DNA of 64,000 nt, from positions 52,405 to 116,404 of the forward strand of contig CAYQJX010000004.1 of assembly GCA_964417965.1 (NCBI GenBank), written 5' to 3'. The stretch is from an uncultured Elusimicrobiaceae bacterium. GTDB lineage: Bacteria; Elusimicrobiota; Elusimicrobia; Elusimicrobiales; UBA9959. The position numbers were made by a program, and so were the translations under genes. Shown in pieces: positions 35,308 to 46,287 of the stretch; within the stretch, counting starts at the first letter, position 1, and each line of letters begins with the position of its first letter. Below the pieces are notes generated by a model that made no database searches, was not told the DNA's origin, and saw only the letters and a list, made by a program, of their open reading frames with translations.

Positions 35308-35604
35308 TTAAGAGACCTTTACCGAGATCCTGGCCAGGTACTTGTCCAGGTCGTCGGCGGGGCGCGGTATCACGTGCATCCCGCACAGCTCCCCGACCTT
35401 CTGGGCGGCGGCGGCGCCGGCTTCCACGGCGGCGCGCACGGCGCCGACTTCGCCCACGCACAGCGTGGTCACGTAGCCGGAGCCTATCTTCTCGTAGCCG
35501 AGCAGGCGCACCTTGGCGGCCTTGCTCATGGCGTCAGAGGCTTCGATCATACCGATGAAACCCTTAGTCTCTATCATTCCCAGCGCTTCTTTCGGTTCGG
35601 ACAT
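35308..35604 (-). CDS. BMC-H shell protein (PduA/EutM/CcmK family, Pfam00936)
   Basis: [57 protein letters not shown]...HVIPRP. Confidence 0.9.
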
Positions 35605-35627
35605 AGTAGCTCCTTGTTATCGCTAAA

Positions 35628-36608
35628 TTAGTACTGCCCTTTGGCGGCCTCGCCGCCGGAAACTATGGCTATGCTGGCGCTCGTGCCGAGGCGCGTGGCG
35701 CCGGCCTTGATCATGGCCGCGGCCACTTCGGCGTTCTTGATGCCGCCGGAGGCCTTCACGCCCATCTCGGGGCCCACGGTCTCGCGCATCAGGGCGATGT
35801 CCTCGGGAGTGGCGCCTCCGGAGCCGAAGCCGGTGGAGGTCTTCACGAAGTCGGCCTGCGCGGCTTTTGACATTTTGCAGGCGCGGATCTTCTCGTCCTT
35901 GGTAAGATAGGAAGTCTCCAGGATCACCTTGAGCGTTTTGCCGCGCGTGGCGTCGCGCACCGCTTTTATGTCGTCCTGCACCAGCTGGTCGTTGCCGCTC
36001 TTGAGCGCGCCGATATTGATGACCATGTCTATCTCGTCGGCGCCGTTGGCTATGGCGTCACGGGCCTCTATGGCCTTCACGGTCGGGGTCGTAGAGCCAA
36101 GCGGGAAACCGATGACGGTGCAGACCATCACATTGGAGCCGCGCAGCAGGCGGGACGACAGCGCCACGTAGCCGGGGTTAACGCAGACGGAGGCGAAGCG
36201 GTACTTGCGGGCCTCCTCGCAGAGCTTGCCGATCTCTTCCTGCGTGGCGTTGGCCTTGAGCAGGGTATGGTCGATCATGCCGGCGATGGAAGAGCTGGAT
36301 TCGTTGGGGTTGCAGAAAGTCACGCGGTCGGCGGTAGCCTTTATCTGCTGCGGGGTGTATTTATTGAGCGGGTTGCAGCTCTGGCAGGAGGAGGAGCAGG
36401 TGTTCTCTTCGAGCCGGCAATCGCCCTGGCCGGAGCAGGCCTTCTTCTCGGCGGCGCCGGGCTTGTTGACCAGCGGGTGCTGGAACACCTTGCCGGACGA
36501 GCCTATGCTCACATTGTCGCCGAGGGTCTGCCTCGGGGCGGGAGACCCGCCGGCCTTCATGATCCTGGCCACCTCGGCCGCGATTTTCTTTATATCTTCG
36601 TCGTTCAT
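35628..36608 (-). CDS. deoC: Deoxyribose-phosphate aldolase (DERA/DeoC) with ~105-aa N-terminal extension
   Basis: The DERA core begins at [15 protein letters not shown] and includes FASVCVNP and the Schiff-base region DFVKTSTGF. The N-terminal extension carries an EP-like helix and a Cys cluster. Confidence 0.85.
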
Positions 36609-36609
36609 A

Positions 36610-36888
36610 TTAGCCTCGCTTGTCGATGTGAACTTTATCCACTATGCCGGCTACCACGGTGCGCACCGGCGCCTTGGAGTTCTTTAAAATTTTCCGGGCG
36701 GAACCGCCCTCGTCCACTATCAGCACGGTGTCGCCCACGCCCGCGCCCTGGTTGTCTATCACCAGCTGGGCCTCGCCCGCGAACTCGCCGTCGGCGCCCA
36801 GCGGCCTGGCCAGCAGCATGGTGGCGTTCTTCAGCCCCGGGTGCCGGCGCGTTGCCCAGACGTTTCCAATGACTTTAGCTACGAACAT
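36610..36888 (-). CDS. BMC-P vertex protein (EutN/CcmL/PduN family, Pfam03319)
   Basis: [30 protein letters not shown]...[23 protein letters not shown]...[12 protein letters not shown]. Confidence 0.9.
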
Positions 36889-36892
36889 AAAA

Positions 36893-37189
36893 TTAGTTGA
36901 ACTTCTTCCCGTCTATTATTCCCACTATCGCAGCGTCCACCGGCGGCGGGGCCGCCTTCACGGCGGTTTCCCCTTCCCAGCCTTCGAAAGCCAGGATGGC
37001 CTCGCGCGAGGCGACGAAGAAAACCGTTTCCCCCGCCCCGGCGCCTACGGTGTCGCCGGCTACCAGCGGGTCGCCCGACGGCTTGTCGGTCTCCCAGTCG
37101 AGCGGCTGTATCAAAAGCAGGGTCTTCGACTCCATGCCGCAGCACTGGCGGGAGCAGAAAACCCTTCCTATGACCTTGGCCTGTTTCAT
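36893..37189 (-). CDS. BMC-P vertex protein paralogue (divergent, with insertion)
   Basis: MKQAKVIGRVFCSRQCCGMESKTLLLIQPLD...VAGDTVGAGAGETVFFVAS...VDAAIVGIIDG. It has an extra FEGWEGETAVKAAPPP segment. Confidence 0.85.
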   Translation of the reverse strand: MKQAKVIGRVFCSRQCCGMESKTLLLIQPLDWETDKPSGDPLVAGDTVGAGAGETVFFVASREAILAFEGWEGETAVKAAPPPVDAAIVGIIDGKKFN

Positions 37190-37190
37190 T

Positions 37191-37637
37191 TCAATAGCAC
37201 TTCTGTTCTATCGCGGTGATCTTGTCGAGGCGCTTCTGGTACTTGCCGCCTTCGAAAGGGGTATTGAGCCAGACCTTGATCATCTCCTCGAGGGCCAGCT
37301 CGCCGTGCGTCTTGCCGCCGAGGCAGAGCACGTTGCAGTCCTCGTGCGCCGCGGCGAAGCGGGCCGAGATGGTGTCATAGGCGGCCACGGCGCGGATGCC
37401 GTGCACCTTGTTGGCGGCCAGCGGCATGGCCCCGTTGAAGCCGTCCACCAGCACGGCCTTGTCGAATTCCTTGCGGCGCACGGCCTCGCTGACGAGCAGG
37501 GCGATGTCCGGGAAATCCACCGGCTCCACGGAGTAACAGCCAAAGTCGGTAACGTCGTGGCCGAGCTTCTGCAGGAACTTCTTAAGCCGCTCCTTAGCCT
37601 CGAAACCAGCGTGATCCGCGCCTATGACGATCCTCAT
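37191..37637 (-). CDS. rpiB: Ribose-5-phosphate isomerase B (RpiB/LacAB family)
   Basis: MRIVIGADHAGFEAKE...GCYS...VDFPD...NKVHGIRAA...HEDCNVLCLGG. Confidence 0.9.
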   Translation of the reverse strand: MRIVIGADHAGFEAKERLKKFLQKLGHDVTDFGCYSVEPVDFPDIALLVSEAVRRKEFDKAVLVDGFNGAMPLAANKVHGIRAVAAYDTISARFAAAHEDCNVLCLGGKTHGELALEEMIKVWLNTPFEGGKYQKRLDKITAIEQKCY

Positions 37638-37647
37638 AAATTCTCTC

Positions 37648-38196
37648 CTATATGGCCGCGCCGAGATGTTCGTGCGCGTTGGGTATCACTATGCGGCTCA
37701 CTACCGCGTCCTCGCCTATGGCCTTAACGCCGGCGGCCACCGCGGTGCGCACGGCGCCGGGCTCGCCCACGACGGTGAAGTAGCCTTTGCCGCCAATGCC
37801 CTTGCCGGTGTTCACTTCGGCCACGTGCACGAAGGCGGCCTTGGCGGCCGCGTCGGCCGCGAACAGCGCCGGCAGGGCCTCCTTGGTCTCCACTATGCCC
37901 ACGGCCTCTATGCTGGCGGGCTTAACTTTCTTGTTGAGCGCGGCCAGCGCGCCGGCGTGGACGTTGCGGATGATGTGGCGCGCTATGAGCGTGTTGCCCG
38001 CTATCTCGGCGCCTTTGGCCAGCGAGGATTCCACCTCGCCGACGGGGCCGGAGAGCACTATTATGTATTTCCCCTTGGAGATCGCCTGGTGCACCTCGGG
38101 CTTTACGCCCGCGGCCTTGCACATGGCGTCCAGCGTCTCTATGCCCTTGGCTATCGAGGAAAGTTCCATCAAACCTATGGCAATGTTGGCCTGCAT
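37648..38196 (-). CDS. BMC-T shell protein (tandem Pfam00936, PduT-like; Ser at the PduT Cys38 position)
   Basis: Two BMC domains, IAIGLMELSSIAKGIETLDAM... and IEAVGIVETKEALPALFAADAAAKAA.... The start is taken at MQANIAIG. The ISKGKY motif stands where PduT has ICPGKF. Confidence 0.85.
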   Translation of the reverse strand: MQANIAIGLMELSSIAKGIETLDAMCKAAGVKPEVHQAISKGKYIIVLSGPVGEVESSLAKGAEIAGNTLIARHIIRNVHAGALAALNKKVKPASIEAVGIVETKEALPALFAADAAAKAAFVHVAEVNTGKGIGGKGYFTVVGEPGAVRTAVAAGVKAIGEDAVVSRIVIPNAHEHLGAAI

Positions 38197-38207
38197 ATAA
38201 ATTCTCC

Positions 38208-39620
38208 TTAAGCTATCCTGAGGTCGCCGACTACGCTGCACTGCAGCGGGCGCACGAAATGGCTGGTCTTGGTGATGCCGTCTCCCGTCGGGGTGCCGAT
38301 GGACATGGAGGCGTAGCCCTCGCCGAGGCCGAGGCCGTGCAGCGTGCAGCCGTTCTTGACGAAGATGGAGCAGGCCATGCGGCGGCCCATCTTGGTCATG
38401 TTCCTGATATTGGTGGAATACATCCCGGCCGAGTGGTGGTTCTCCCCCTCGGCGAAACGCGCCAGTTCTATGGCCGCGTCCACGTCCCTGGCTACCGTGA
38501 CCGGCAGCACCGGCATCAGCTGCTCGCTGACCACGAAGGGGTGGTCGTTCGGGACTTCCGCCCAGAGCACCCGGATCTCGTCGGACAGGGTCAGGCCGAT
38601 GGCCTTGGCGATAACGGACGGGTTCTTGCCGATGAAAGAGCGGTTCACCTTGGGCTCGCGGCCGGGTTCCAGTATTGCCAGCTTGGTCAGCTGGTCCATC
38701 TGGGGGCCGGTCAGCTCATAGGCGCGGGCGTCGGAGCGCATGGCTTCCAGGAAGCGGGAGCGCGCGGCCTCGGTCACTATCACTTCCTTCTCGGCGATGC
38801 AGAGCACGTTGTTGTCGAAGCCGCAGCCGTAAATTATTTCCTTCGCGCAATCCGGGAAGACCGCGGTCTCGTCCACCACTATCGGCGGGTTGCCGGGCCC
38901 GGCGGCTATGGTCTTGCAGGGCTTGCCGGAGGTCATGGCCACTTTTACTATGGCCGGGCCGCCGGTGACTATGTTCATATGGGTGTTCGGATGGGACAGC
39001 AGCTGCTTGGTGGCTTCCTGGGTCGGGTTGGCTATGGTGGTGACCAGGTTGGCCGGGCCGCCGGCGGCGACGATGGCGGAATTGAGGACGCGCACGGCGT
39101 CGGCCACACAGCCCTTGGCGGCGGGATGAGGAGAGAAGACGACGGCGTTGCCGGCGGCGAGGATGCCGATGGCGTTAGAGATGATGGTGGCCACGGCGTT
39201 AGTAGACGGCGTAATGGCCGCCACCACGCCGAAAGGGGCGTATTCCACCAGGGTAAGGCCCTTGTCGCCGGTATAGGACACGGCGCGCAGGTCTTCCACG
39301 CCCGGGGTCCCGTCGATGCAGACCATGTTCTTGAGGACCTTGTCCTCCACCCGGCCCATGCCGGTCTCGGCCACGGCCAGCTCGGCCCAGCGGCGGGCGT
39401 TGGCGCGGGAGACTTCGCGCATGGCGGCTATGATCTTTTCGCGCGCCACCAGGCCCAGGTCCTGGAAGCCGGGCTGCGCGGCGTTGGCGGCGGCTACCGC
39501 CTGGTCGACGGTGTCGAACACGGGGCCGCCGGCGGCGGCCGGGGACGGGGCGTCCGCGGCGCCGAGGCTGCGCACCACCTCGGTCACTATCTTTTTAAGG
39601 TCTTCTTCGCTTATGGGCAT
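38208..39620 (-). CDS. CoA-acylating aldehyde dehydrogenase (PduP/EutE-like) with N-terminal encapsulation peptide
   Basis: ALDH fold with catalytic-Cys context FDNNVLCIAEKE. The N-terminus MPISEEDLKKIVTEVVRSL is followed by an Ala/Pro/Gly linker. Confidence 0.85.
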   Translation of the reverse strand: MPISEEDLKKIVTEVVRSLGAADAPSPAAAGGPVFDTVDQAVAAANAAQPGFQDLGLVAREKIIAAMREVSRANARRWAELAVAETGMGRVEDKVLKNMVCIDGTPGVEDLRAVSYTGDKGLTLVEYAPFGVVAAITPSTNAVATIISNAIGILAAGNAVVFSPHPAAKGCVADAVRVLNSAIVAAGGPANLVTTIANPTQEATKQLLSHPNTHMNIVTGGPAIVKVAMTSGKPCKTIAAGPGNPPIVVDETAVFPDCAKEIIYGCGFDNNVLCIAEKEVIVTEAARSRFLEAMRSDARAYELTGPQMDQLTKLAILEPGREPKVNRSFIGKNPSVIAKAIGLTLSDEIRVLWAEVPNDHPFVVSEQLMPVLPVTVARDVDAAIELARFAEGENHHSAGMYSTNIRNMTKMGRRMACSIFVKNGCTLHGLGLGEGYASMSIGTPTGDGITKTSHFVRPLQCSVVGDLRIA

Positions 39621-39628
39621 AAGAGAGA

Positions 39629-39937
39629 CTAATCCTGGAATTTGTCGGCCGACTTCTTGAACACCACCTTGCCGTCCTTCTCTATGGTGTCGACTATCGC
39701 GAAGACGGTGCAGTCCACCGGCGTATTCTCGGTCTTTGAAGTCTGGCGGGCGCTGGAGCCCTGCACCAGCAGCACCAGTTCCCCGGTGCCGGCGCCCACG
39801 GCGTCTATAGCGACGAGCGTATTGCCGCGCGGCTTATCATCCAGGCCCACCGGCTGCACCATCAGCAGCTTGGTGCCGACGAGCTTGTCGTCCTTGCGGG
39901 TACAGACCACGTTGCCCACTACTCGTGCGAATAGCAT
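39629..39937 (-). CDS. BMC-P vertex protein (third paralogue)
   Basis: MLFARVVGNVVCTRKDDKLVGTKLLMVQPV...VAIDAVGAGTGELVLLVQGSSAR...DCTVFAIVD. Confidence 0.9.
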   Translation of the reverse strand: MLFARVVGNVVCTRKDDKLVGTKLLMVQPVGLDDKPRGNTLVAIDAVGAGTGELVLLVQGSSARQTSKTENTPVDCTVFAIVDTIEKDGKVVFKKSADKFQD

Positions 39938-39957
39938 GAATCCTCCGTCAGGGAATG

Positions 39958-39985
39958 GGCGCGGGGGCTTGAAGCCCCCTGCGCC
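39958..39985 (-). other. GC-rich intercistronic hairpin between BMC-H and BMC-P genes
   Basis: On the minus strand ggcgcagggggc-ttcaa-gcccccgcgcc gives 5+6 bp with one bulged A. No U tract follows. It is followed by a GGAGG Shine-Dalgarno and the BMC-P ATG. Confidence 0.45.
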
Positions 39986-39998
39986 GCGTTAAGCCCTT

Positions 39999-40283
39999 TT
40001 ACTTCTTTTTGGCTTCGCTTATCGGCAGTTTGCCTTCCAGGTCGCCGTGAGGCTGCGGGATCACGTGCACGCTCACCAGCTCGCCCACTTTCTGGGCGGC
40101 GGCGGCGCCGGAGTCGCAGGCGGCGCGGCAGGCGGCCACTTCGCCGCGGAAAAGGATGGTCACGAGGCCGGAGCCGATCTTTTCGTAGCCGACTATCTTC
40201 ACGTTGGCGGCTTTCACCGCGGCGTCGGCCGCTTCCACACAGGCCACGAGGCCCTTGGTTTCTATCATTCCGAGTGCGTCCAT
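39999..40283 (-). CDS. BMC-H shell protein (PduA/EutM family)
   Basis: [59 protein letters not shown]...HVIPQP. Confidence 0.9.
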
Positions 40284-40319
40284 ATTCCCTCCAGTGTAAC
40301 TAGACTAAAATACCGAAAA

Positions 40320-40952
40320 TCAGACTATGTAGGCCGGGTCGCAGTTCTTCAGGCCGGCGGCGTTGGCCTCTTCCACGTCCAGGTGCAGCTCCAGCGAGTA
40401 GGCGTCGGAGACGCGGCACAGCACCCGCTCGTAAATGGTCTCCCGGTCGGTGCCCCGGCCGCAGAGCACGCGCACTTCCTGGCCGTCGCGCACCTTGTAA
40501 GCCGCGCCTTCCTTCACGTTGAAATGGATATGCCGCTTGGACAGGATCAAGCCCTGCGGAATCGTGACGGAGCCTTTAGGCCCGACCAGTTTTACGCCCG
40601 GGGAATTGGCCAGCTTGCCGGAGTCGCGGATAGGCGGTTCCACGCCGAGGCGGCGCGCGTCGCCCAGCGACACCTCCACCTGGCTGTACTTCCGGTACGG
40701 CCCTATCATCCGGACGTCCTTGAGGGCGCCTTTGGGGCCCTCCACCGTCACCCGCTCGTTGCAGGCGTACTGGCCCGGCTGCTTTACCGGCTTGAGCTGC
40801 GTGTCGTCGCAGTCGGTCCCGAAGAGGGTCTTAAAATCTTCCTTCGTCAGGTGCACGTGCCGGTTGGAGACGCCTACGGGGATGGGCAGGGCAGAACGCT
40901 CCTGCCTGAGCTGCAGGTCCTGGAGTATTTCGCCGAGTAGCTTTTCGTTCAT
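40320..40952 (-). CDS. pduL: Phosphate acyltransferase PduL (PTAC) with EP-like N-terminus
   Basis: IPVGVSNRHVHLTKEDF..., a second half KRHIHFNVKEG, and GPYRKYSQVEVSLGDARRLG. N-terminal helix MNEKLLGEILQDLQL. Confidence 0.85.
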   Translation of the reverse strand: MNEKLLGEILQDLQLRQERSALPIPVGVSNRHVHLTKEDFKTLFGTDCDDTQLKPVKQPGQYACNERVTVEGPKGALKDVRMIGPYRKYSQVEVSLGDARRLGVEPPIRDSGKLANSPGVKLVGPKGSVTIPQGLILSKRHIHFNVKEGAAYKVRDGQEVRVLCGRGTDRETIYERVLCRVSDAYSLELHLDVEEANAAGLKNCDPAYIV

Positions 40953-40961
40953 TTTAATTTT

Positions 40962-41741
40962 TTACCGGCTCAGCGCCTGCTGGAAATGTATCACGCGCAG
41001 GAACTTGTCGGCCTTGAGGCTCTCTCCGCCCACCAGCGCGCCGTCGATATCGCCCTGGGCCATCAGCTCGTCGATGTTGTCGGCCTTCACCGAGCCGCCG
41101 TAGAGGATGCGCACGGCTTCGGCGTAATCCTTGCCGTAGATGCGCTCCATCTGCTTACGCACAAAAACGTGGGCGTCCTGCGCCTGGTCGGGGGTGGCGG
41201 TCTTGCCGGTGCCTATGGCCCAGACGGGTTCGTAGGCTATTACCACCTTCGCGGCTTCTGCGGCCGTAATGCCGGCGAAGGCGCCGGTCAGCTGGGTCTC
41301 CAGCACGCGGTAGGTTTTCTGGCTCTCGCGCTCTTCCAGCGTCTCGCCGATGCAGAGCACGGGCACGATATTGGCCTTTATGGCGGCTTTCATCTTCTTG
41401 TTGACGACCTCGTCGGTCTCGAGGAAGATCTTGCGGCGCTCGGAATGCCCGATGAGGGCGTGGGTGCAGCCCGCGTCTATGATCTGCGACGGGGACACCG
41501 CGCCGGTGAAGGCGCCCTTTTCCTCCCAGGCTACGTCCTGGGAAGAGAGGAAGATCTTCGAGCCGGCGATGGCGGCTTTTACCGCGTGCAGGTTGGTGAA
41601 AGAGGGGGCGAGCAGCACCTCGTGCTTGAGGTCCGGGTCCAGGCCTTTCTTCATGGCGGCGGCCAGGTCGGCGGCCTCCTTGGAAGTCAGGTGCATCTTC
41701 CAGTTGCCGGCTATCATCGGGATTCTTTTGTGGGAAGCCAT
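40962..41741 (-). CDS. tpiA: Triosephosphate isomerase
   Basis: IAGNWKMH, GHSERR and AYEPVWAIGTG. Confidence 0.92.
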   Translation of the reverse strand: MASHKRIPMIAGNWKMHLTSKEAADLAAAMKKGLDPDLKHEVLLAPSFTNLHAVKAAIAGSKIFLSSQDVAWEEKGAFTGAVSPSQIIDAGCTHALIGHSERRKIFLETDEVVNKKMKAAIKANIVPVLCIGETLEERESQKTYRVLETQLTGAFAGITAAEAAKVVIAYEPVWAIGTGKTATPDQAQDAHVFVRKQMERIYGKDYAEAVRILYGGSVKADNIDELMAQGDIDGALVGGESLKADKFLRVIHFQQALSR

Positions 41742-41788
41742 TTTCGGGTCTCCTTATAATTAATCAAAAAGATTATACAAATAATGGG

Positions 41789-42337
41789 CTAAATTATTTC
41801 CCGCAGCAGCTCCTGCCTGGGCTGGGGAATGACCACCTTCTCCACCAGCAGGCCTTTTTTGCCGGCTACGGCGGCGCCGGCGGCCACGGCGGTTTCAACA
41901 GCGGCGACGCTGCCGGTCATAGTGACGAAAGCTTTGCCGCCCAGCGCCATGGCCAGGCGTATCTCCAGGAGTTTCACATTGCCGGCTTTTACCGCCGCGT
42001 CGGCGGCCTCTATCAGGGCCGCGACCGAAAAAGCTTCTATAATGCCCAGGGACTCAAGACCGTCCACCACGGTGGTGCCTTCTATGGCCGGGAAAACCTC
42101 CGGATGTATGTTGGGGATAACAAAGCTGTCCACCAGGGAATGCGCCGCCTTTGCGGAGCCGGCTTCAACGGCGGCGTTAACGGCGCCGACATCGCCCGCG
42201 ATAAGCGCGATGTATTTGCCCGCGCAGATGGACCGCGAAAGTATCAATTTGATATCCGCGGTTTTCAGCATGGCGTCGGCCGCCTCCATGCCCTTGGCCA
42301 CACTGGAAAGTTCAACACCGCCTATTGCGTTTAGCAT
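41789..42337 (-). CDS. pduT: BMC-T shell protein, PduT-like with conserved Cys38
   Basis: Tandem BMC domains. LILSRSICAGKYIALIAGDVGAV aligns with Salmonella PduT [20 protein letters not shown], whose Cys38 is the 4Fe-4S ligand. Confidence 0.85.
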   Translation of the reverse strand: MLNAIGGVELSSVAKGMEAADAMLKTADIKLILSRSICAGKYIALIAGDVGAVNAAVEAGSAKAAHSLVDSFVIPNIHPEVFPAIEGTTVVDGLESLGIIEAFSVAALIEAADAAVKAGNVKLLEIRLAMALGGKAFVTMTGSVAAVETAVAAGAAVAGKKGLLVEKVVIPQPRQELLREII

Positions 42338-42344
42338 AAAGACC

Positions 42345-43688
42345 TTAAGCGATTATCTCCACATAGCGTTCGTTTACCTTGCCGACGGTGCCGGAGATGC
42401 TGGCGTGCACCGGGCAGCCCAGTTTGTCGGCCGGGACGTCCCCCACCACGGCGCCCTTCTCCACCCGCTGCCCCTCTTTGACGGAGGGCACGCAGGGAAC
42501 GCCGATATGCTGGCTCATTAAAATTTTCACCTTGCCCGGCTTATAAACGGCGTCGCTCCACGGCGCGGCCTTGTTGTAATCGTCCAGGCCCAGGCGCCGC
42601 ACCAGTTTTGAAACAGGCACCTTGCGGAAATCCCTGACAGGGTGCACTTCCGGCTTAACCCCGGTGTTAAGCTGCGAATTCTTGAAGCCCATCTTCTGCT
42701 CCCGCAGGTCGCTCTTGGCCGCGACGCAGGCCTCGCGCGGGTGCAGGCCCTCGGGACAGGAGTAGAGCGAGCACAGGGAGCACTCGCAGCACAGCAGGCC
42801 GTACTGGCTGTGCAGTTTATGTTCCGGCCCGCCGGCAAAAAGCATGGTGCGCATCACGCGGTGCGGCTGCACGTTGTGGCCCAGCAGGTAGCGCGGGCAG
42901 AACTCGGTGCAGAAAGAGCACTGGTCGCAGGCGGAGCGGCCGACGCGGGTGAAAACGGGGCGGCTCTGCGCCTTTTTGACTATCAGCGGATGGCTTTTCG
43001 GCAGCACTATGATGCCGGAGGAGGCCTTCATCACCGGCAGGTCGAAATCGGTCTGCACCTTGCCCATCATCGGGCCGCCGTCTATATAAGCGGGGTCCTT
43101 AACGGTGAAGCCCCCGCAGAGTTCCACGGCCTCCCGCCAGGTTATCCCTACCGGCACGCGGAAGGTGGCGGGTTTCTTTACCCCGCCGTTGACGGTTATG
43201 AAAGTTTCGGTGACCGGGCGCGGCGCGAGGGCGGCGTTATAGAGCGTCTCCACGTTGACCACCACGCAGCCCACTTCCAGCGGGAGGCCGCCGGGCGGCA
43301 CTATCCGGCCGGTGGCCTCGTAGACCAGGCACTGCTCGTCGCCGGCGGGGTAGTAATCGCCCATTTCAAGGACGGAAATGTTTTTGCGGGACTTCGCTAT
43401 TTCTTTAAGGCGCGGGATGATCTTTTCGTGTTTCTTTTTGATACCGACCACGCCTTTGGACGCGCCCACGGCGCCCATCAGCAGCTCCAGCCCGTCGAAG
43501 ACCTGCTCCGGAAAATATTCCAGGATCTTCTGGTCCTTCTTGAGCAGCGGCTCGCATTCGGCGGCGTTGACCAGCGCGAACTCGGCCGTCCCCTGCGCTT
43601 TCACGTAGGAGGGAAAGCCCGCGCCGCCGGCTCCAACAACGCCGGCGGCACGAAGGTTTCTGCTGAATTCAGCTGAGGTTTGGGACAT
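42345..43688 (-). CDS. RnfC/PduS-like flavo-iron-sulfur oxidoreductase
   Basis: GVVGAGGAGFPSYVK (51K-type NAD/FMN site), an SLBB-like region, and two ferredoxin motifs CDQCSFCTEFCP and CCECSLCSLYSCP. The C-terminal segment is RnfC_N-like (HIGVPCVPSVKEGQRVEKG...VHASISGTV). Confidence 0.8.
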   Translation of the reverse strand: MSQTSAEFSRNLRAAGVVGAGGAGFPSYVKAQGTAEFALVNAAECEPLLKKDQKILEYFPEQVFDGLELLMGAVGASKGVVGIKKKHEKIIPRLKEIAKSRKNISVLEMGDYYPAGDEQCLVYEATGRIVPPGGLPLEVGCVVVNVETLYNAALAPRPVTETFITVNGGVKKPATFRVPVGITWREAVELCGGFTVKDPAYIDGGPMMGKVQTDFDLPVMKASSGIIVLPKSHPLIVKKAQSRPVFTRVGRSACDQCSFCTEFCPRYLLGHNVQPHRVMRTMLFAGGPEHKLHSQYGLLCCECSLCSLYSCPEGLHPREACVAAKSDLREQKMGFKNSQLNTGVKPEVHPVRDFRKVPVSKLVRRLGLDDYNKAAPWSDAVYKPGKVKILMSQHIGVPCVPSVKEGQRVEKGAVVGDVPADKLGCPVHASISGTVGKVNERYVEIIA

Positions 43689-45018: not shown

Positions 45019-46287
45019 TCAATCCTGCGGCGAGCCGGCCCCGGCGGCGAAGAAATCCAGGTTCTCCTTGTAGTAGTCCTTCCTGGCCGGGTCCTTCTCT
45101 TCCGAATATTTCGCGGCGTAAAATGCCATGGCTTTAGGGTAGTTTTTTCCGCGCAGCGGCCCCAGGTCCTCCGGGAAAGGGCGGCCGGTGGCGGCGCAGG
45201 CCTTCTCCAGCGATTTAAGGTGCTGGGCCAGGATCTCCACGCTCATTTTTTTATGGGTGTCCCTGACAAAAGAAGCCGCCTCCAGTATGGCCAGCGCGCC
45301 CTTGGTCTTGAGGGAATTCAGGGTCTCCGGCGCCAGCCCGTAGCGGCCGGCGTTGGCGTCGGCCACGGCCAGGCAGTCCAGCGCCATGGGGTAATTCTTC
45401 TCCTCCAGGGCCGCGGTGCCGATGAACAGCAGGGCGTCGGAGCTGAAGGCCGGCCAGTGCGTCCCGTAAAAATTCTCCAGGAATTCGGCGTATTCCGCCT
45501 TCTCCCGCTGCAGCCTGGCCAGGGAGGTGTTATCCTTCACGTATTCCCCCACCTGGCCGGAGGCGTAGGCCAGGATCTTGGAGTCGGCCATCCCCGCCTG
45601 GCGCCGCTCGGCGGCATCTTCCATGCTGAGATAGCCAAGCTGCTCCTCGTAGTAGCGGCGGATCTTCTCCCTGTATTTTTCCGGGTCCAGGGACAGCGTG
45701 AAATAACTGCCGAACGTGGTGGCCGTATAGATATCGGTATAGCTGCCGCGGATGAAGTCGCGCAGCAGCGCCGGGTCGGCCTTCATGCGCTCGTGCACGT
45801 ACATATCCTCGGTGAGGTAGGCCTCGTACTCGAACTCCAGCGGGTTGCCGCCCGCGTCCTGCCGGTATTCGGGGTAAAGGTAGCACTGCGCGGCGTGCAC
45901 GAGCTCGTGCAGGTAGATCGGGTGCGCGTATTTAACCAGCTCGGCGCGCACCTTTTTGTTGCTCCAGAGCACCTCCACCACCTGCGCCCCGCTGAACCCT
46001 TTGGCGTCGAAGAACCGGAGGATGAACCGGGAATTAAAATAGACCGCGTTCGCCTCCGGCTCGAACCAGGCGAAGGCCTCCCCCTTGTCCCGCCGCACCA
46101 GCACCCGGAGCGACTTGAACCGTTCGGTCTTCTCCAGCCGCGCGTAGAGGTCGCGGCCTGCGGCCGTGGAACTGAGCTGGACCGCGAATTCCTTCTTAAG
46201 CCTGGCGCTCAACGCCCCGTCGTGCGGATAGGCCCCGGCCAGGGCCGGCAGCAGCAGCAGCAAAAGCGAAGTCAGCACCCGTTTCAT
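45019..46287 (-). CDS. Secreted protein with HExxH motif (putative zinc metallopeptidase-like)
   Basis: Signal peptide MKRVLTSLLLLLLPALAGA and an IYLHELVHAAQ motif. I recognise no family. Confidence 0.5.
   Translation of the reverse strand: MKRVLTSLLLLLLPALAGAYPHDGALSARLKKEFAVQLSSTAAGRDLYARLEKTERFKSLRVLVRRDKGEAFAWFEPEANAVYFNSRFILRFFDAKGFSGAQVVEVLWSNKKVRAELVKYAHPIYLHELVHAAQCYLYPEYRQDAGGNPLEFEYEAYLTEDMYVHERMKADPALLRDFIRGSYTDIYTATTFGSYFTLSLDPEKYREKIRRYYEEQLGYLSMEDAAERRQAGMADSKILAYASGQVGEYVKDNTSLARLQREKAEYAEFLENFYGTHWPAFSSDALLFIGTAALEEKNYPMALDCLAVADANAGRYGLAPETLNSLKTKGALAILEAASFVRDTHKKMSVEILAQHLKSLEKACAATGRPFPEDLGPLRGKNYPKAMAFYAAKYSEEKDPARKDYYKENLDFFAAGAGSPQD

What the first reader, a model, noticed from the sequence alone, without database searches (positions are those of the whole stretch)
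36375..36437. Cysteine cluster (CX5CX6CX3CX2C) in the ~105-aa N-terminal extension of DERA
Seen: between the EP-like helix and the DERA barrel (which begins around [11 protein letters not shown], residue ~108) lies [24 protein letters not shown], with Cys at residues 58, 64, 71, 75 and 78. Canonical DERA (~220 aa) has no such segment and needs no metal. Inference: this could be a metal or Fe-S binding site, or a redox-sensitive disulfide module. It might regulate or tether the signature enzyme inside a compartment that also contains a PduT-type Fe-S pore and an Fe-S flavoprotein.
Basis: inference. Interest (0 to 1): 0.55.

Follow-up and report, generated by a model that had tools for sequence, protein, structure and literature searches.

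The report
Conserved cysteine knuckle in microcompartment aldolase tether

Summary
A minus-strand ORF (35628-36608, 326 aa) encodes a true DeoC aldolase (DERA) with a ~107-aa N-terminal extension. Cys58/64/71/75/78 lie at 36375-36437.

The gene sits in a sugar-phosphate-utilising (SPU) microcompartment operon of an Elusimicrobiota genome. The extension itself is already known for SPU DERAs (Dwyer et al. 2024), but the SPU papers I read and searched never mention its cysteines.

Across about 200 distinct homologous N-termini and 54 species-level genomes:
- C75, C78 and C99 are nearly invariant.
- C71 is either Cys or replaced by a nearby His.
- C64 is common only in the window's own clade, and C58 is variable.

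The knuckle-to-C99-to-barrel spacing is fixed (20-21 and 14 residues), while the linker upstream varies from 23 to 73 residues. Other clades move the ligands (CxC after the helix; CP...CxxCxxC without C99) but usually keep three or four.

Best reading: a small structural metal site, Zn-type favoured and Fe-S not excluded, that caps the tether next to the barrel. It follows an encapsulation helix and an invariant V-[ST]-x-G-[TS]-[AS]-G-K motif. Its presence does not track the neighbouring PduS/PduT genes.

No metal binding is shown. AlphaFold confidence is low, and no known family or fold matches. I rate it a new variant of a known kind, of moderate interest.

The parts
35628..36608 (-). DERA gene (326 aa plus stop) with an N-terminal extension of about 107 aa
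   Evidence: ORF. Pfam DeoC matches residues 111-304. TIGR00126 deoC scores 295 bits against a cutoff of 117. The start ATG lies 1 nt after the upstream BMC-P stop codon, with a GAGG 7-10 nt upstream.
36552..36602 (-). Amphipathic encapsulation-peptide-like helix, residues 3-19 ([17 protein letters not shown])
   Evidence: AlphaFold2 predicts a helix at 3-19 with pLDDT about 76-84. It is conserved in homologues. The AldDH N-terminus SEEDLKKIVTEVVRSL has the same pattern.
36483..36512 (-). Invariant short linear motif V33-SIGSSGKV-F42 (consensus V-[TS]-x-G-[TS]-[AS]-G-K-[VIL]-F)
   Evidence: G39, K40 and F42 are invariant and G36 is 77/78 in alignment A1. The motif occurs two to three times in tandem in distant homologues P0229, P0230, P0232, P0234 and P0235. 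It is the only such motif in the window and in the five related loci scanned.
36417..36437 (-). Variable part of the reported cluster: C58 to C64, inside an indel-rich linker
   Evidence: C58 and C64 are each 36/78 in A1. In 89 N-termini of the window's class, a Cys 4-9 residues before C71 occurs in 74 and a C58 equivalent in 50. Insertions of about 20 aa occur here in P0008 and P0013.
36366..36407 (-). Conserved knuckle E68-L81 (EENTC71sssC75qsC78NPL)
   Evidence: C75 and C78 are each 76/78 and C71 is 63/78 in A1. A CxxC is present in 54/54 species-level genomes and the full C-x3-C-x2-C in 43/54. Where C71 is absent, a His lies within 10 residues upstream in 52 of 61 sequences.
36306..36326 (-). 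Invariant segment R95-VTF-C99-N-P101. C99 is the proposed fourth ligand and lies outside the reported coordinates.
   Evidence: R95 and C99 are 78/78 and P101 is 76/78. C99 is present in 54/54 genomes. The distance from the last knuckle Cys to C99 is 20-21 residues in 138/150 sequences, and C99 to D113 is 14 residues in 192/196.
35631..36287 (-). Canonical DERA TIM barrel, residues 108-326
   Evidence: PDB DERA structures align over about 105-326, with E down to 2e-81. The motif residues D194, K227 and K256 and the C-terminal Y326 are invariant in A1. All four barrel Cys are shared with the extension-less DERA 8qps.
39561..39620 (-). N-terminus of the aldehyde dehydrogenase, carrying a helix motif similar to that of DERA (context)
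   Evidence: Translation (MPISEEDLKKIVTEVVRSLG). Pfam Aldedh match.
35308..43688 (-). SPU-type microcompartment operon: BMC-H, DERA, two BMC-P, RpiB-like, BMC-T, AldDH, BMC-P, BMC-H, PduL, TIM, PduT-like BMC-T, PduS-like flavoprotein
   Evidence: Pfam and NCBIfam matches. The same gene order is found in Elusimicrobiota loci L001-L060.

Best explanation
The extension is a modular tether for packaging DERA into a sugar-phosphate-utilising (SPU) microcompartment. Its modules, in order, are:
1. an amphipathic encapsulation helix (residues 3-19), also found on the aldehyde dehydrogenase;
2. an invariant short linear motif, V-[TS]-x-G-[TS]-[AS]-G-K-[VIL]-F (33-42), probably a peptide-docking site;
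3. a linker of variable length that holds the non-conserved C58 and the clade-specific C64;
4. a fixed-length unit of about 45 residues (68-112) directly in front of the barrel.

In that last unit, C71, C75, C78 and C99 most likely bind one metal ion. I favour a structural Zn-type Cys4 site (Cys3His in other clades). The metal would close the 71-99 loop into a compact cap.

The inferred role is structural. It would stiffen and orient the junction between the flexible tether and the enzyme, and perhaps present a docking surface. It is not catalytic, because DERA is a metal-independent Schiff-base aldolase.

Shown: the anatomy, the conservation, the ligand exchange and the fixed spacing. Inferred: metal binding, the identity of the metal, and the role in packaging.
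For: - **Conservation.** C75 and C78 are each 76/78, and C99 and R95 are 78/78, in alignment A1 of 78 full-length homologues. CxxC and C99 are present in 54/54 species-level Elusimicrobiota genomes.
- **Third ligand.** It is Cys at position -4 in 89 sequences. Otherwise a His lies within 10 residues upstream in 52 of the remaining 61. Cys/His exchange is typical of metal sites and cannot be explained by a disulfide.
- **Ligand relocation with the count roughly kept.** 90 N-termini have C-x3-C-x2-C plus C99. 42 have no knuckle but a CxC after the helix plus C99. 59 have CxxC plus C99 (24 of them also with CxC). About 5 have CP-x8-10-C-x2-C-x2-C (4 of them without C99). Only 4 of 202 have C99 alone.
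- **Fixed geometry behind a variable linker.** Knuckle to C99 is 20-21 residues in 138/150. C99 to D113 is 14 residues in 192/196. The motif-to-knuckle distance ranges from 23 to 73 residues.
- **CPxC knuckles are common in the distant clades**.
- **The barrel contributes no extension-specific Cys.** All four barrel Cys are shared with the extension-less DERA 8qps.
- **The knuckle is retained where PduS/PduT are absent from the locus**. This fits a structural role better than an electron-relay role.
- **The extension is translated.** It has a coupled start with a GAGG upstream and is conserved at the protein level down to about 26% identity over the extension.
- **Literature.** Dwyer et al. 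2024 (PMC11585597) describe the extension as an encapsulation peptide, find it on all SPU DERAs and show that deleting it makes the protein soluble.
Against: - No metal is demonstrated.
- AlphaFold2 gives only pLDDT about 52-63 (full-length model) or 60-75 (extension alone) for residues 71-109. No coordinates were available to measure Cys-Cys distances.
- No Pfam family, PDB sequence or PDB fold matches.
- The spacing C-x3-C-x2-C plus a distal Cys-x-Pro, and CP...CxxCxxC in one clade (which gives weak Fer4_21 hits, E = 0.017), fit a [4Fe-4S] site at least as well as Zn.
- C99 is kept even where the knuckle is lost (P0092, P0099, P0100, P0198 and the whole CxC clade). It may therefore have a role of its own.
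- The clade patterns are phylogenetically non-independent, so the 'compensation' rests on only a few evolutionary events.
Confidence: 0.45

Rival explanations
1. The Cys unit binds a redox-active [4Fe-4S] (or [2Fe-2S]) cluster. The signature enzyme would then be part of, or sensitive to, the luminal electron path formed by the PduS-like NADH dehydrogenase and the PduT-like shell cluster.
For: - Three closely spaced Cys (C-x3-C-x2-C) with a distal Cys followed by x-Pro.
- One divergent SPU clade has CP-x8-10-C-x2-C-x2-C instead, with sub-threshold Fer4_21 hits at E = 0.017 and 0.088.
- The operon encodes a PduS-like protein (Complex1_51K, Fer4_17) and a PduT-like BMC-T with Cys38.
- Some homologues carry an N-terminal PF02441 flavoprotein domain in front of the same motif and knuckle.
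Against: - The first ligand is exchanged for His in about 50 sequences, and the knuckle is lost completely in 42 sequences that keep C99.
- The window protein has no Fer4 or other Pfam hit even at E <= 10.
- Loci of close relatives (L007, L010, L012, L016, L042) and of more distant ones (L045, L047, L049, L053, L059, L060) lack the PduS/PduT pair within the sequence held, yet keep the knuckle or C99.
- DERA chemistry needs no electrons (established knowledge of class I aldolases).
Confidence: 0.2
2. The cysteines form reversible disulfides: a redox switch or a cross-link that stabilises the packed core, as proposed for the Cys pairs of CsoS2 in carboxysomes.
For: - CxxC and CPHC motifs are present.
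- There is a precedent: the CsoS2 middle-region repeats combine (V/I)(T/S)G shell-binding triplets with conserved Cys pairs thought to stabilise the shell-scaffold complex (PMC11365436).
Against: - Cys-to-His replacement is incompatible with a disulfide.
- The conserved set is three or four ligands rather than pairs, and C99 persists alone in some sequences.
- C58 and C64 do not co-occur strictly.
- The hosts are Elusimicrobiota groundwater and sediment MAGs with a fermentative-type, acetyl-CoA-producing microcompartment. My own background knowledge is that the cytoplasm of such organisms is reducing.
Confidence: 0.08
3. There is no cofactor. The conserved residues (C75, C78, R95, C99, P101) are contact residues of a protein-protein interface, with the barrel, the DERA dimer, the RpiB-like partner or the shell. 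The rest of the cluster is linker composition.
For: - Invariant residues lie in AlphaFold-uncertain segments, which is typical of partner-dependent folding.
- The neighbouring G-x-x-G-K-x-F motif behaves like a linear docking motif and is repeated in some homologues.
- C58 is variable and lies next to indels.
Against: - Selective conservation of Cys, with replacement by His rather than by Ser or Ala, and relocation of Cys pairs between clades, are not expected of a plain interface.
- In SPU6, the DERA-RPI complex forms without the extension (PMC11585597).
Confidence: 0.17

Closest known systems
N-terminal extension (putative encapsulation peptide) of SPU-microcompartment DERA, described for SPU6 Chloroflexi DERA by Dwyer, Sutter & Kerfeld 2024 (PMC11585597)
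   Same: - The enzyme, the kind of locus and the position of the extension are the same.
- Both have an amphipathic helix followed by a low-confidence segment.
- Automated annotation often truncates both. Here, NCBI models of 216 and 236 aa start inside or after the extension.
   Different: - The published extension is about 70 residues, described as a helix plus two low-confidence beta strands. Cysteines, metal or a linear motif in the extension are not mentioned.
- Here it is about 107 residues with an invariant GxxGKxF motif and a Cys/His knuckle.
- Whether SPU6 proteins share the motif and the knuckle was not tested, because no SPU6 sequence was at hand.
Classical microcompartment encapsulation peptides (PduP, PduD, EutC type)
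   Same: A short terminal amphipathic helix is joined to the enzyme by a poorly conserved linker. In this operon the helix motif is shared between two cargo enzymes, DERA and AldDH.
   Different: Classical encapsulation peptides are a helix plus a linker only. Here a conserved linear motif and a fixed-length Cys unit lie between the helix and the enzyme.
CsoS2 middle-region repeats of alpha-carboxysomes
   Same: Both are disordered scaffolding sequence that combines a short V/I-T/S-(x)-G motif, a conserved Lys, an aromatic residue and conserved cysteines. The motif is multivalent in some DERA homologues, with two to three copies about 16 residues apart.
   Different: - There is no detectable homology.
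- The motif differs (VTxGTAGKxF against VTG triplets 8 residues apart).
- The window protein has a single copy.
- CsoS2 cysteines come in pairs and were dispensable for growth, whereas here the Cys set exchanges with His.
- Shell binding by the DERA motif is untested.
Flavoprotein-DERA fusions of Hodarchaeales microcompartments (PMC12747264)
   Same: An extra N-terminal module sits on a microcompartment DERA. Metagenomic homologues of the window protein (P0175, P0235 and probably P0187, P0205, P0218, P0234) place such a domain directly before the same GxxGK motif and Cys knuckle. It is matched by PF02441 in P0175 and P0235.
   Different: The window protein has no flavoprotein domain. The preprint does not describe a Cys motif in DERA.

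Membership tests
Deoxyribose-phosphate aldolase (DeoC, class I aldolase, TIGR00126) | Full-length match to the curated equivalog model above its cutoff | tested here: met
   TIGR00126 scores 294.9 bits against a cutoff of 117.3, over residues 108-316. PDB DERA structures match at E = 2e-81.
Deoxyribose-phosphate aldolase (DeoC, class I aldolase, TIGR00126) | Catalytic Asp, Schiff-base Lys and second Lys (E. coli D102/K167/K201), and the C-terminal Tyr | tested here: met
   The motifs ADEID194MV, LK227VILET and FVK256TSTG and the C-terminal Y326 are present and invariant in 78 homologues. The E. coli residues are as listed in PMC11585597. The correspondence is by motif, not by a formal alignment to E. 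coli DERA. The role of the C-terminal Tyr comes from my own background knowledge.
Deoxyribose-phosphate aldolase (DeoC, class I aldolase, TIGR00126) | Cleavage of 2-deoxyribose 5-phosphate | not testable with these tools
   An enzyme assay is needed. An SPU6 orthologue was active once its extension was deleted.
SPU (sugar-phosphate-utilising) microcompartment locus | Shell genes (BMC-H, BMC-T and a triplet of BMC-P) clustered with DERA and an aldehyde dehydrogenase, usually with an RpiB-type isomerase | tested here: met
   Pfam finds BMC four times (two of them tandem BMC-T), EutN_CcmL three times, and DeoC, Aldedh, LacAB_rpiB, PTAC, TIM and a PduS-like protein, all on one strand at 35308-43688. 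The RpiB-like protein has Asp where E. coli RpiB has the catalytic Cys (VDGFNG), as reported for all SPU RPIs. I placed this by reading the motif, not by a formal alignment.
Microcompartment encapsulation peptide | A terminal amphipathic helix of about 15-25 residues separated from the enzyme by a linker | tested here: met
   AlphaFold2 predicts a helix at 3-19 (pLDDT about 76-84) followed by a stretch with pLDDT below 50. A similar helix sits on the AldDH N-terminus.
Microcompartment encapsulation peptide | Necessary and sufficient for targeting cargo into the shell | not testable with these tools
   This requires encapsulation assays.
Ferredoxin-type [4Fe-4S] binding domain (Pfam Fer4 families; CxxCxxCxxxCP) | The canonical Cys spacing and a match to a Fer4 model | tested here: not met
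   The window spacing is C-x3-C-x2-C...x20...C-N-P, and there is no Pfam hit at E <= 10. Only two divergent homologues give sub-threshold Fer4_21 hits (15.7 and 13.4 bits against a cutoff of 35).
Radical SAM enzymes (CX3CX2C) | The CX3CX2C motif embedded in a radical SAM (PF04055) core | tested here: not met
   The motif spacing is present (C71-x3-C75-x2-C78), but there is no PF04055 match and no room for the domain. The segment is about 45 residues, in front of a DeoC barrel.
Zinc ribbon / zinc knuckle domains | Two CxxC-type knuckles on beta hairpins, and a match to a zinc-ribbon model or fold | tested here: inconclusive
   - One CxxC (often CPxC) knuckle is universal in the knuckle-bearing clades. 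The second ligand pair is atypical: C71 or His, plus the distal C99.
- Only scattered single sub-threshold hits appear: Anti-TRAP twice, and Ogr_Delta, zf-NPL4 and Zn_ribbon_tTFIIB once each.
- Foldseek finds no PDB analogue.
- The model's confidence is too low to judge the fold.
CsoS2-type scaffold repeats | Tandem repeats with (V/I)(T/S)G triplets 8 residues apart, Cys pairs, and a conserved Lys and Tyr | tested here: not met
   The window protein has a single [10 protein letters not shown] copy and a different motif architecture. The resemblance is functional analogy only.

The most novel reading that the evidence does not exclude
The DERA extension is a metabolosome counterpart of the carboxysome scaffold CsoS2. 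Its V-T-x-G-T-A-G-K motif, multivalent in some lineages, would bind the shell or core partners. The Cys unit would bind a redox-active Fe-S cluster, or act as a metal- or redox-dependent latch. Packaging or activity of the signature enzyme would then respond to iron or redox status inside the compartment.
Probability: 0.15. Interest if true: 0.7.

Novelty: new variant of a known kind. Interest (0 to 1): 0.42.

Why it matters
SPU microcompartments are among the most widespread metabolosome types, yet how their signature enzyme is packed is known only as 'a helix plus a poorly predicted segment'.

If that segment holds a conserved metal knuckle and a docking motif, three things follow:
- Full-length DERA may have been insoluble in E. 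coli partly because of a missing or mis-loaded cofactor.
- There would be defined residues to mutate in encapsulation studies.
- Engineers would have a more specific targeting tag.

If the site is Fe-S, it would be the first cofactor-bearing tether on a non-redox microcompartment cargo.

The result also shows that gene models for these enzymes in public MAG annotations are often truncated, which hides the feature.

Tried and rejected
- **Chance cluster: rejected.** Shuffle P is about 0.01, and three of the five Cys are conserved across 54 species.
- **Mis-called start or untranslated extension: rejected.** The start is coupled to the upstream stop, a GAGG lies upstream, and the extension is conserved at the protein level.
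- **Radical SAM reading of CX3CX2C: rejected.** There is no such domain.
- **Barrel cysteines as extra ligands specific to this form: rejected.** All four are shared with an extension-less DERA.
- **Searches that found nothing useful:**
  - Pfam on the extension at E <= 10.
  - Pfam on 76 extension sequences, which gave only scattered weak Cys-rich hits.
  - A profile of the extension against PDB sequences, best E = 0.22.
  - Foldseek of the extension model against the PDB, no match.
  - A word-indexed protein search with the extension of the divergent P0132 alone, with no scored hit and one search wasted.
- **AlphaFold2, twice** (full length; extension alone with 76 diverse sequences). Confidence was low to moderate in the Cys unit and no coordinates were returned, so the convergence of the thiols could not be checked.
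- **Profile search of 1.84 billion representative proteins: only 22 hits,** all DERA N-termini or fragments. I found no evidence that the module is portable to other enzymes. The 50% clustering may hide some full-length proteins.
- **Obligate link to PduS/PduT: not supported** by locus comparison.
Full report
**1. Observation**

The minus-strand ORF 35628..36608 encodes a 326-aa protein. Its residues 57-80 read [24 protein letters not shown]. Cys58, 64, 71, 75 and 78 are encoded at 36375-36437, exactly as reported, with spacing CX5CX6CX3CX2C. The protein has ten Cys in all. In 20,000 shuffles of its own residues, five or more fell within 21 residues in only 1% of cases. A sixth N-terminal Cys, C99 (36312-36314), lies just outside the reported interval.

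**2. The gene and its surroundings**

- Residues 108-326 are a bona fide deoxyribose-phosphate aldolase (DERA). Pfam DeoC matches 111-304. TIGR00126 scores 295 bits against a cutoff of 117. Solved DERA structures align from about residue 105 to the end at E = 2e-81.
- The motifs ADEID194, LK227VILET and VK256TSTG and the C-terminal Y326 are invariant in 78 homologues.
- The gene lies in a one-strand operon at 35308-43688. Its order is BMC-H, DERA, two BMC-P, RpiB-like, BMC-T, aldehyde dehydrogenase, BMC-P, BMC-H, PduL, TIM, PduT-like BMC-T (with Cys38) and a PduS-like flavoprotein.
- This is the sugar-phosphate-utilising (SPU) microcompartment of Axen 2014, Sutter 2021 and Dwyer 2024.
- The RpiB-like protein has Asp in place of the catalytic Cys, as that literature reports for SPU isomerases. 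I read this from the motif, not from a formal alignment.
- Named homologues and all phylum-labelled related genome loci are Elusimicrobia/Elusimicrobiota MAGs.

**3. The extension is real**

The ATG follows the stop codon of the upstream BMC-P gene by one base and has a GAGG 7-10 nt upstream. The extension is conserved at the protein level in more than 200 sequences. Several NCBI gene models begin inside it or after it (236 and 216 aa). This is the annotation problem Dwyer et al. describe.

**4. Which cysteines are conserved**

In 78 full-length homologues (alignment A1), the invariant extension residues are G39, K40, F42, R95 and C99. C75 and C78 are each 76/78, C71 is 63/78, and C58 and C64 are each 36/78.

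In 54 species-representative Elusimicrobiota genomes:
- a CxxC and C99 are present in 54/54;
- the full C-x3-C-x2-C is present in 43/54;
- both upstream Cys are present in 32 of those 43.

Within the window's own class (89 distinct N-termini), a Cys 4-9 residues before C71 (the C64 equivalent) occurs in 74 and a C58 equivalent in 50. C58 and C64 sit in a linker that takes insertions of about 20 residues.

So the reported five-Cys pattern is a composite. It consists of a conserved core (C71/C75/C78 plus C99), a clade-level C64 and a variable C58.

**5. The wider family**

A second homologue set, seeded with the divergent P0132, brought the total to 202 distinct N-termini. They fall into these classes:

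| Class | Count | Pattern |
|---|---|---|
| A | 90 | C-x3-C-x2-C plus C99 (the window's class) |
| C | 35 | CxxC, usually H-[TS]-x4-5-C-P-x-C, plus C99 (often CHPTxxC) |
| D | 24 | as class C, with an added CxC just after the helix |
| B | 42 | no knuckle, but the CxC, an acidic-His stretch (DDEDAHVD) and C99 |
| E | about 5 | CP-x8-10-C-x2-C-x2-C; four of the five lack C99 |
| none | 4 | neither knuckle nor CxC (C99 only) |

Where the knuckle and C99 are both present (150 sequences), a third upstream ligand candidate exists in 141. It is Cys at position -4 in 89 and His within 10 residues in 52.

The spacing is tightly constrained:
- From the last knuckle Cys to C99 is 20-21 residues in 138/150.
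- From C99 to the barrel's D113 is 14 residues in 192/196.
- From the GxxGKxF motif to the knuckle varies from 23 to 73 residues.

Residues 68-112 therefore behave as a fixed-length unit behind a flexible tether. Cys/His exchange and ligand relocation with a roughly constant count are the signature of a metal or cluster site. One caveat applies: the classes are clades, so the number of independent events is small.

**6. Structure and family searches**

- AlphaFold2 on the full protein gives a confident helix at 3-19, pLDDT below 50 for 21-70, about 52-63 for 71-100 and above 90 for the barrel.
- The extension alone, modelled with 76 diverse sequences, gives about 60 for the knuckle and 73-75 for residues 80-109.
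- No coordinates are returned, so the thiol geometry could not be measured.
- Foldseek finds no PDB analogue.
- Neither the window extension nor a profile of it matches Pfam or PDB sequences.
- Scanning 76 extension sequences against Pfam gives only scattered sub-threshold hits to unrelated Cys-rich families. These are Fer4_21 twice (class E only), Anti-TRAP twice, and several zinc ribbons and EGF domains once each.
- A profile search of 1.84 billion representative proteins found only 22 hits, all DERA N-termini or fragments.
- The motif-based genome scan found it only in Elusimicrobiota-labelled or unlabelled MAGs.

**7. Test of the link to PduS/PduT**

The PduS-like and PduT-like pair lies upstream of TIM in the window and in L001-L006, L008, L015, L018, L024, L026 and L040. 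L009 shows only the PduT-like gene within the sequence held.

The pair is absent from that position, and from the whole locus held, in two groups:
- close relatives with an intact Cys set: L007, L010, L012, L016 and L042;
- more distant loci: L045, L047, L049, L053, L059 and L060.

Class E loci do have PduS. So the knuckle is retained with or without an adjacent electron-relay module. This argues against an obligate coupling. It cannot exclude PduS/PduT genes located elsewhere in those genomes.

**8. What is already known**

Dwyer, Sutter and Kerfeld 2024 report that all SPU DERAs have an N-terminal extension, described as a helix plus two low-confidence strands. They call it a putative encapsulation peptide, show that deleting it makes the SPU6 enzyme soluble, and show that the DERA-RPI complex forms without it. 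They do not mention cysteines, zinc or Fe-S in the extension.

Sutter 2021, Axen 2014 and the Hodarchaeales preprint do not mention them either. A full-text search for cysteine-rich encapsulation peptides found nothing relevant.

**9. Mechanism**

My best reading (confidence about 0.45) is a modular tether: encapsulation helix, docking motif, variable linker and a metal-stapled cap formed by C71/C75/C78/C99. I favour a Zn-type site for four reasons: the His exchange, the CPxC knuckles, the independence from PduS/PduT, and the non-redox chemistry of DERA.

The rivals are:
- A redox-active Fe-S cluster (0.2). It is supported by the three closely spaced Cys plus a distal Cys-x-Pro, and by the ferredoxin-like class E pattern.
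- A cofactor-free interface (0.17).
- A disulfide switch (0.08), which is contradicted by the His substitutions.

All functional statements are inference. Only the anatomy and the conservation are shown.

**10. The docking motif**

V-[TS]-x-G-[TS]-[AS]-G-K-[VIL]-F is the most conserved element of the extension. It occurs two to three times, about 16 residues apart, in class E and in the flavoprotein-fused homologues. That is how a multivalent linear motif behaves.

It recalls the (V/I)(T/S)G shell-binding triplets of CsoS2, which are also accompanied by a conserved Lys, an aromatic residue and cysteines. This is an analogy, not homology, and binding is untested.

**11. Verdict**

- The feature is a new, undescribed variant of a known kind of element, the SPU DERA encapsulation extension. 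It is well conserved in one phylum and of moderate interest.
- It becomes more interesting if the site proves to be Fe-S, or if the motif proves to be a shell-docking signal.

Noticed in passing
window 36483-36512 (-); homologues P0229, P0230, P0232, P0234, P0235: The invariant motif V-[TS]-x-G-[TS]-[AS]-G-K-[VIL]-F of the extension is present two to three times in tandem, about 16 residues apart, in divergent SPU DERAs. This suggests a multivalent linear docking motif, an analogy to the CsoS2 VTG repeats.
   Followed up: partly
P0175, P0187, P0205, P0218, P0234, P0235 (about 500 aa); locus L057 8001-9506: Some metagenomic homologues carry an extra N-terminal domain of about 170-200 aa in front of the same motif, Cys knuckle and DERA barrel, inside SPU-type loci. 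Pfam matches it to PF02441 Flavoprotein in P0175 and P0235 only. A Flav+DERA fusion has so far been highlighted for Hodarchaeales.
   Followed up: partly
window 39561-39620 (-) and 36552-36602 (-): The aldehyde dehydrogenase and DERA start with near-identical helix motifs (SEEDLKKIVTEVVRSL and [16 protein letters not shown]). The two cargo enzymes appear to share one encapsulation signal.
   Followed up: no
homologues P0076, P0079, P0080, P0089, P0091, P0108, P0109, P0111, P0119: Public gene models of these Elusimicrobia DERAs (several named in NCBI) are 216 or 235-236 aa and start at internal Met codons. This cuts off the extension, or cuts it within the RVSFCNP segment.
   Followed up: yes
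window 37191-37637 (-): The RpiB-like protein has Asp (VDGFNG) where E. coli RpiB has the catalytic Cys66. This matches the report that SPU isomerases lack this residue and show negligible ribose-5-phosphate isomerase activity. I placed the residue by reading the motif, not by a formal alignment.
   Followed up: partly
window 41789-43688 (-); loci L007, L010, L012, L016, L042, L045, L047, L049, L053, L059, L060: The PduS-like and PduT-like gene pair at the head of the operon is present in the window and many relatives. It is missing from the locus in several close and distant relatives, so it is a variable accessory module of this SPU lineage.
   Followed up: partly
window 37648-38241 (-): The listed GTG start of this BMC-T overlaps the aldehyde dehydrogenase gene by 34 nt. 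Homologous loci align only from residue 14-16 onward in most cases, so the real start is probably the ATG at Met16 (about 38196).
   Followed up: no
L059 6790-9428; L055 4085-6479: Foreign genes are inserted inside otherwise syntenic SPU operons. L059 has two Peptidase_C14 (caspase-like) genes between RpiB and the BMC-P pair. L055 has an N6_N4 methyltransferase plus a HinfI-type restriction enzyme between BMC-T and RpiB.
   Followed up: no
L059 11009-11317; L060 10969-11259; L055 9413-9697; L057 9901-10212: A small ORF of 94-103 aa with no Pfam match sits next to DERA or BMC-H in distant SPU loci. No counterpart is visible between DERA and BMC-H in the window.
   Followed up: no
window 45019-46287 (-): A 422-aa protein upstream of the operon has an N-terminal hydrophobic, signal-like start and no Pfam or NCBIfam match. 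Its relation to the microcompartment is unknown.
   Followed up: no
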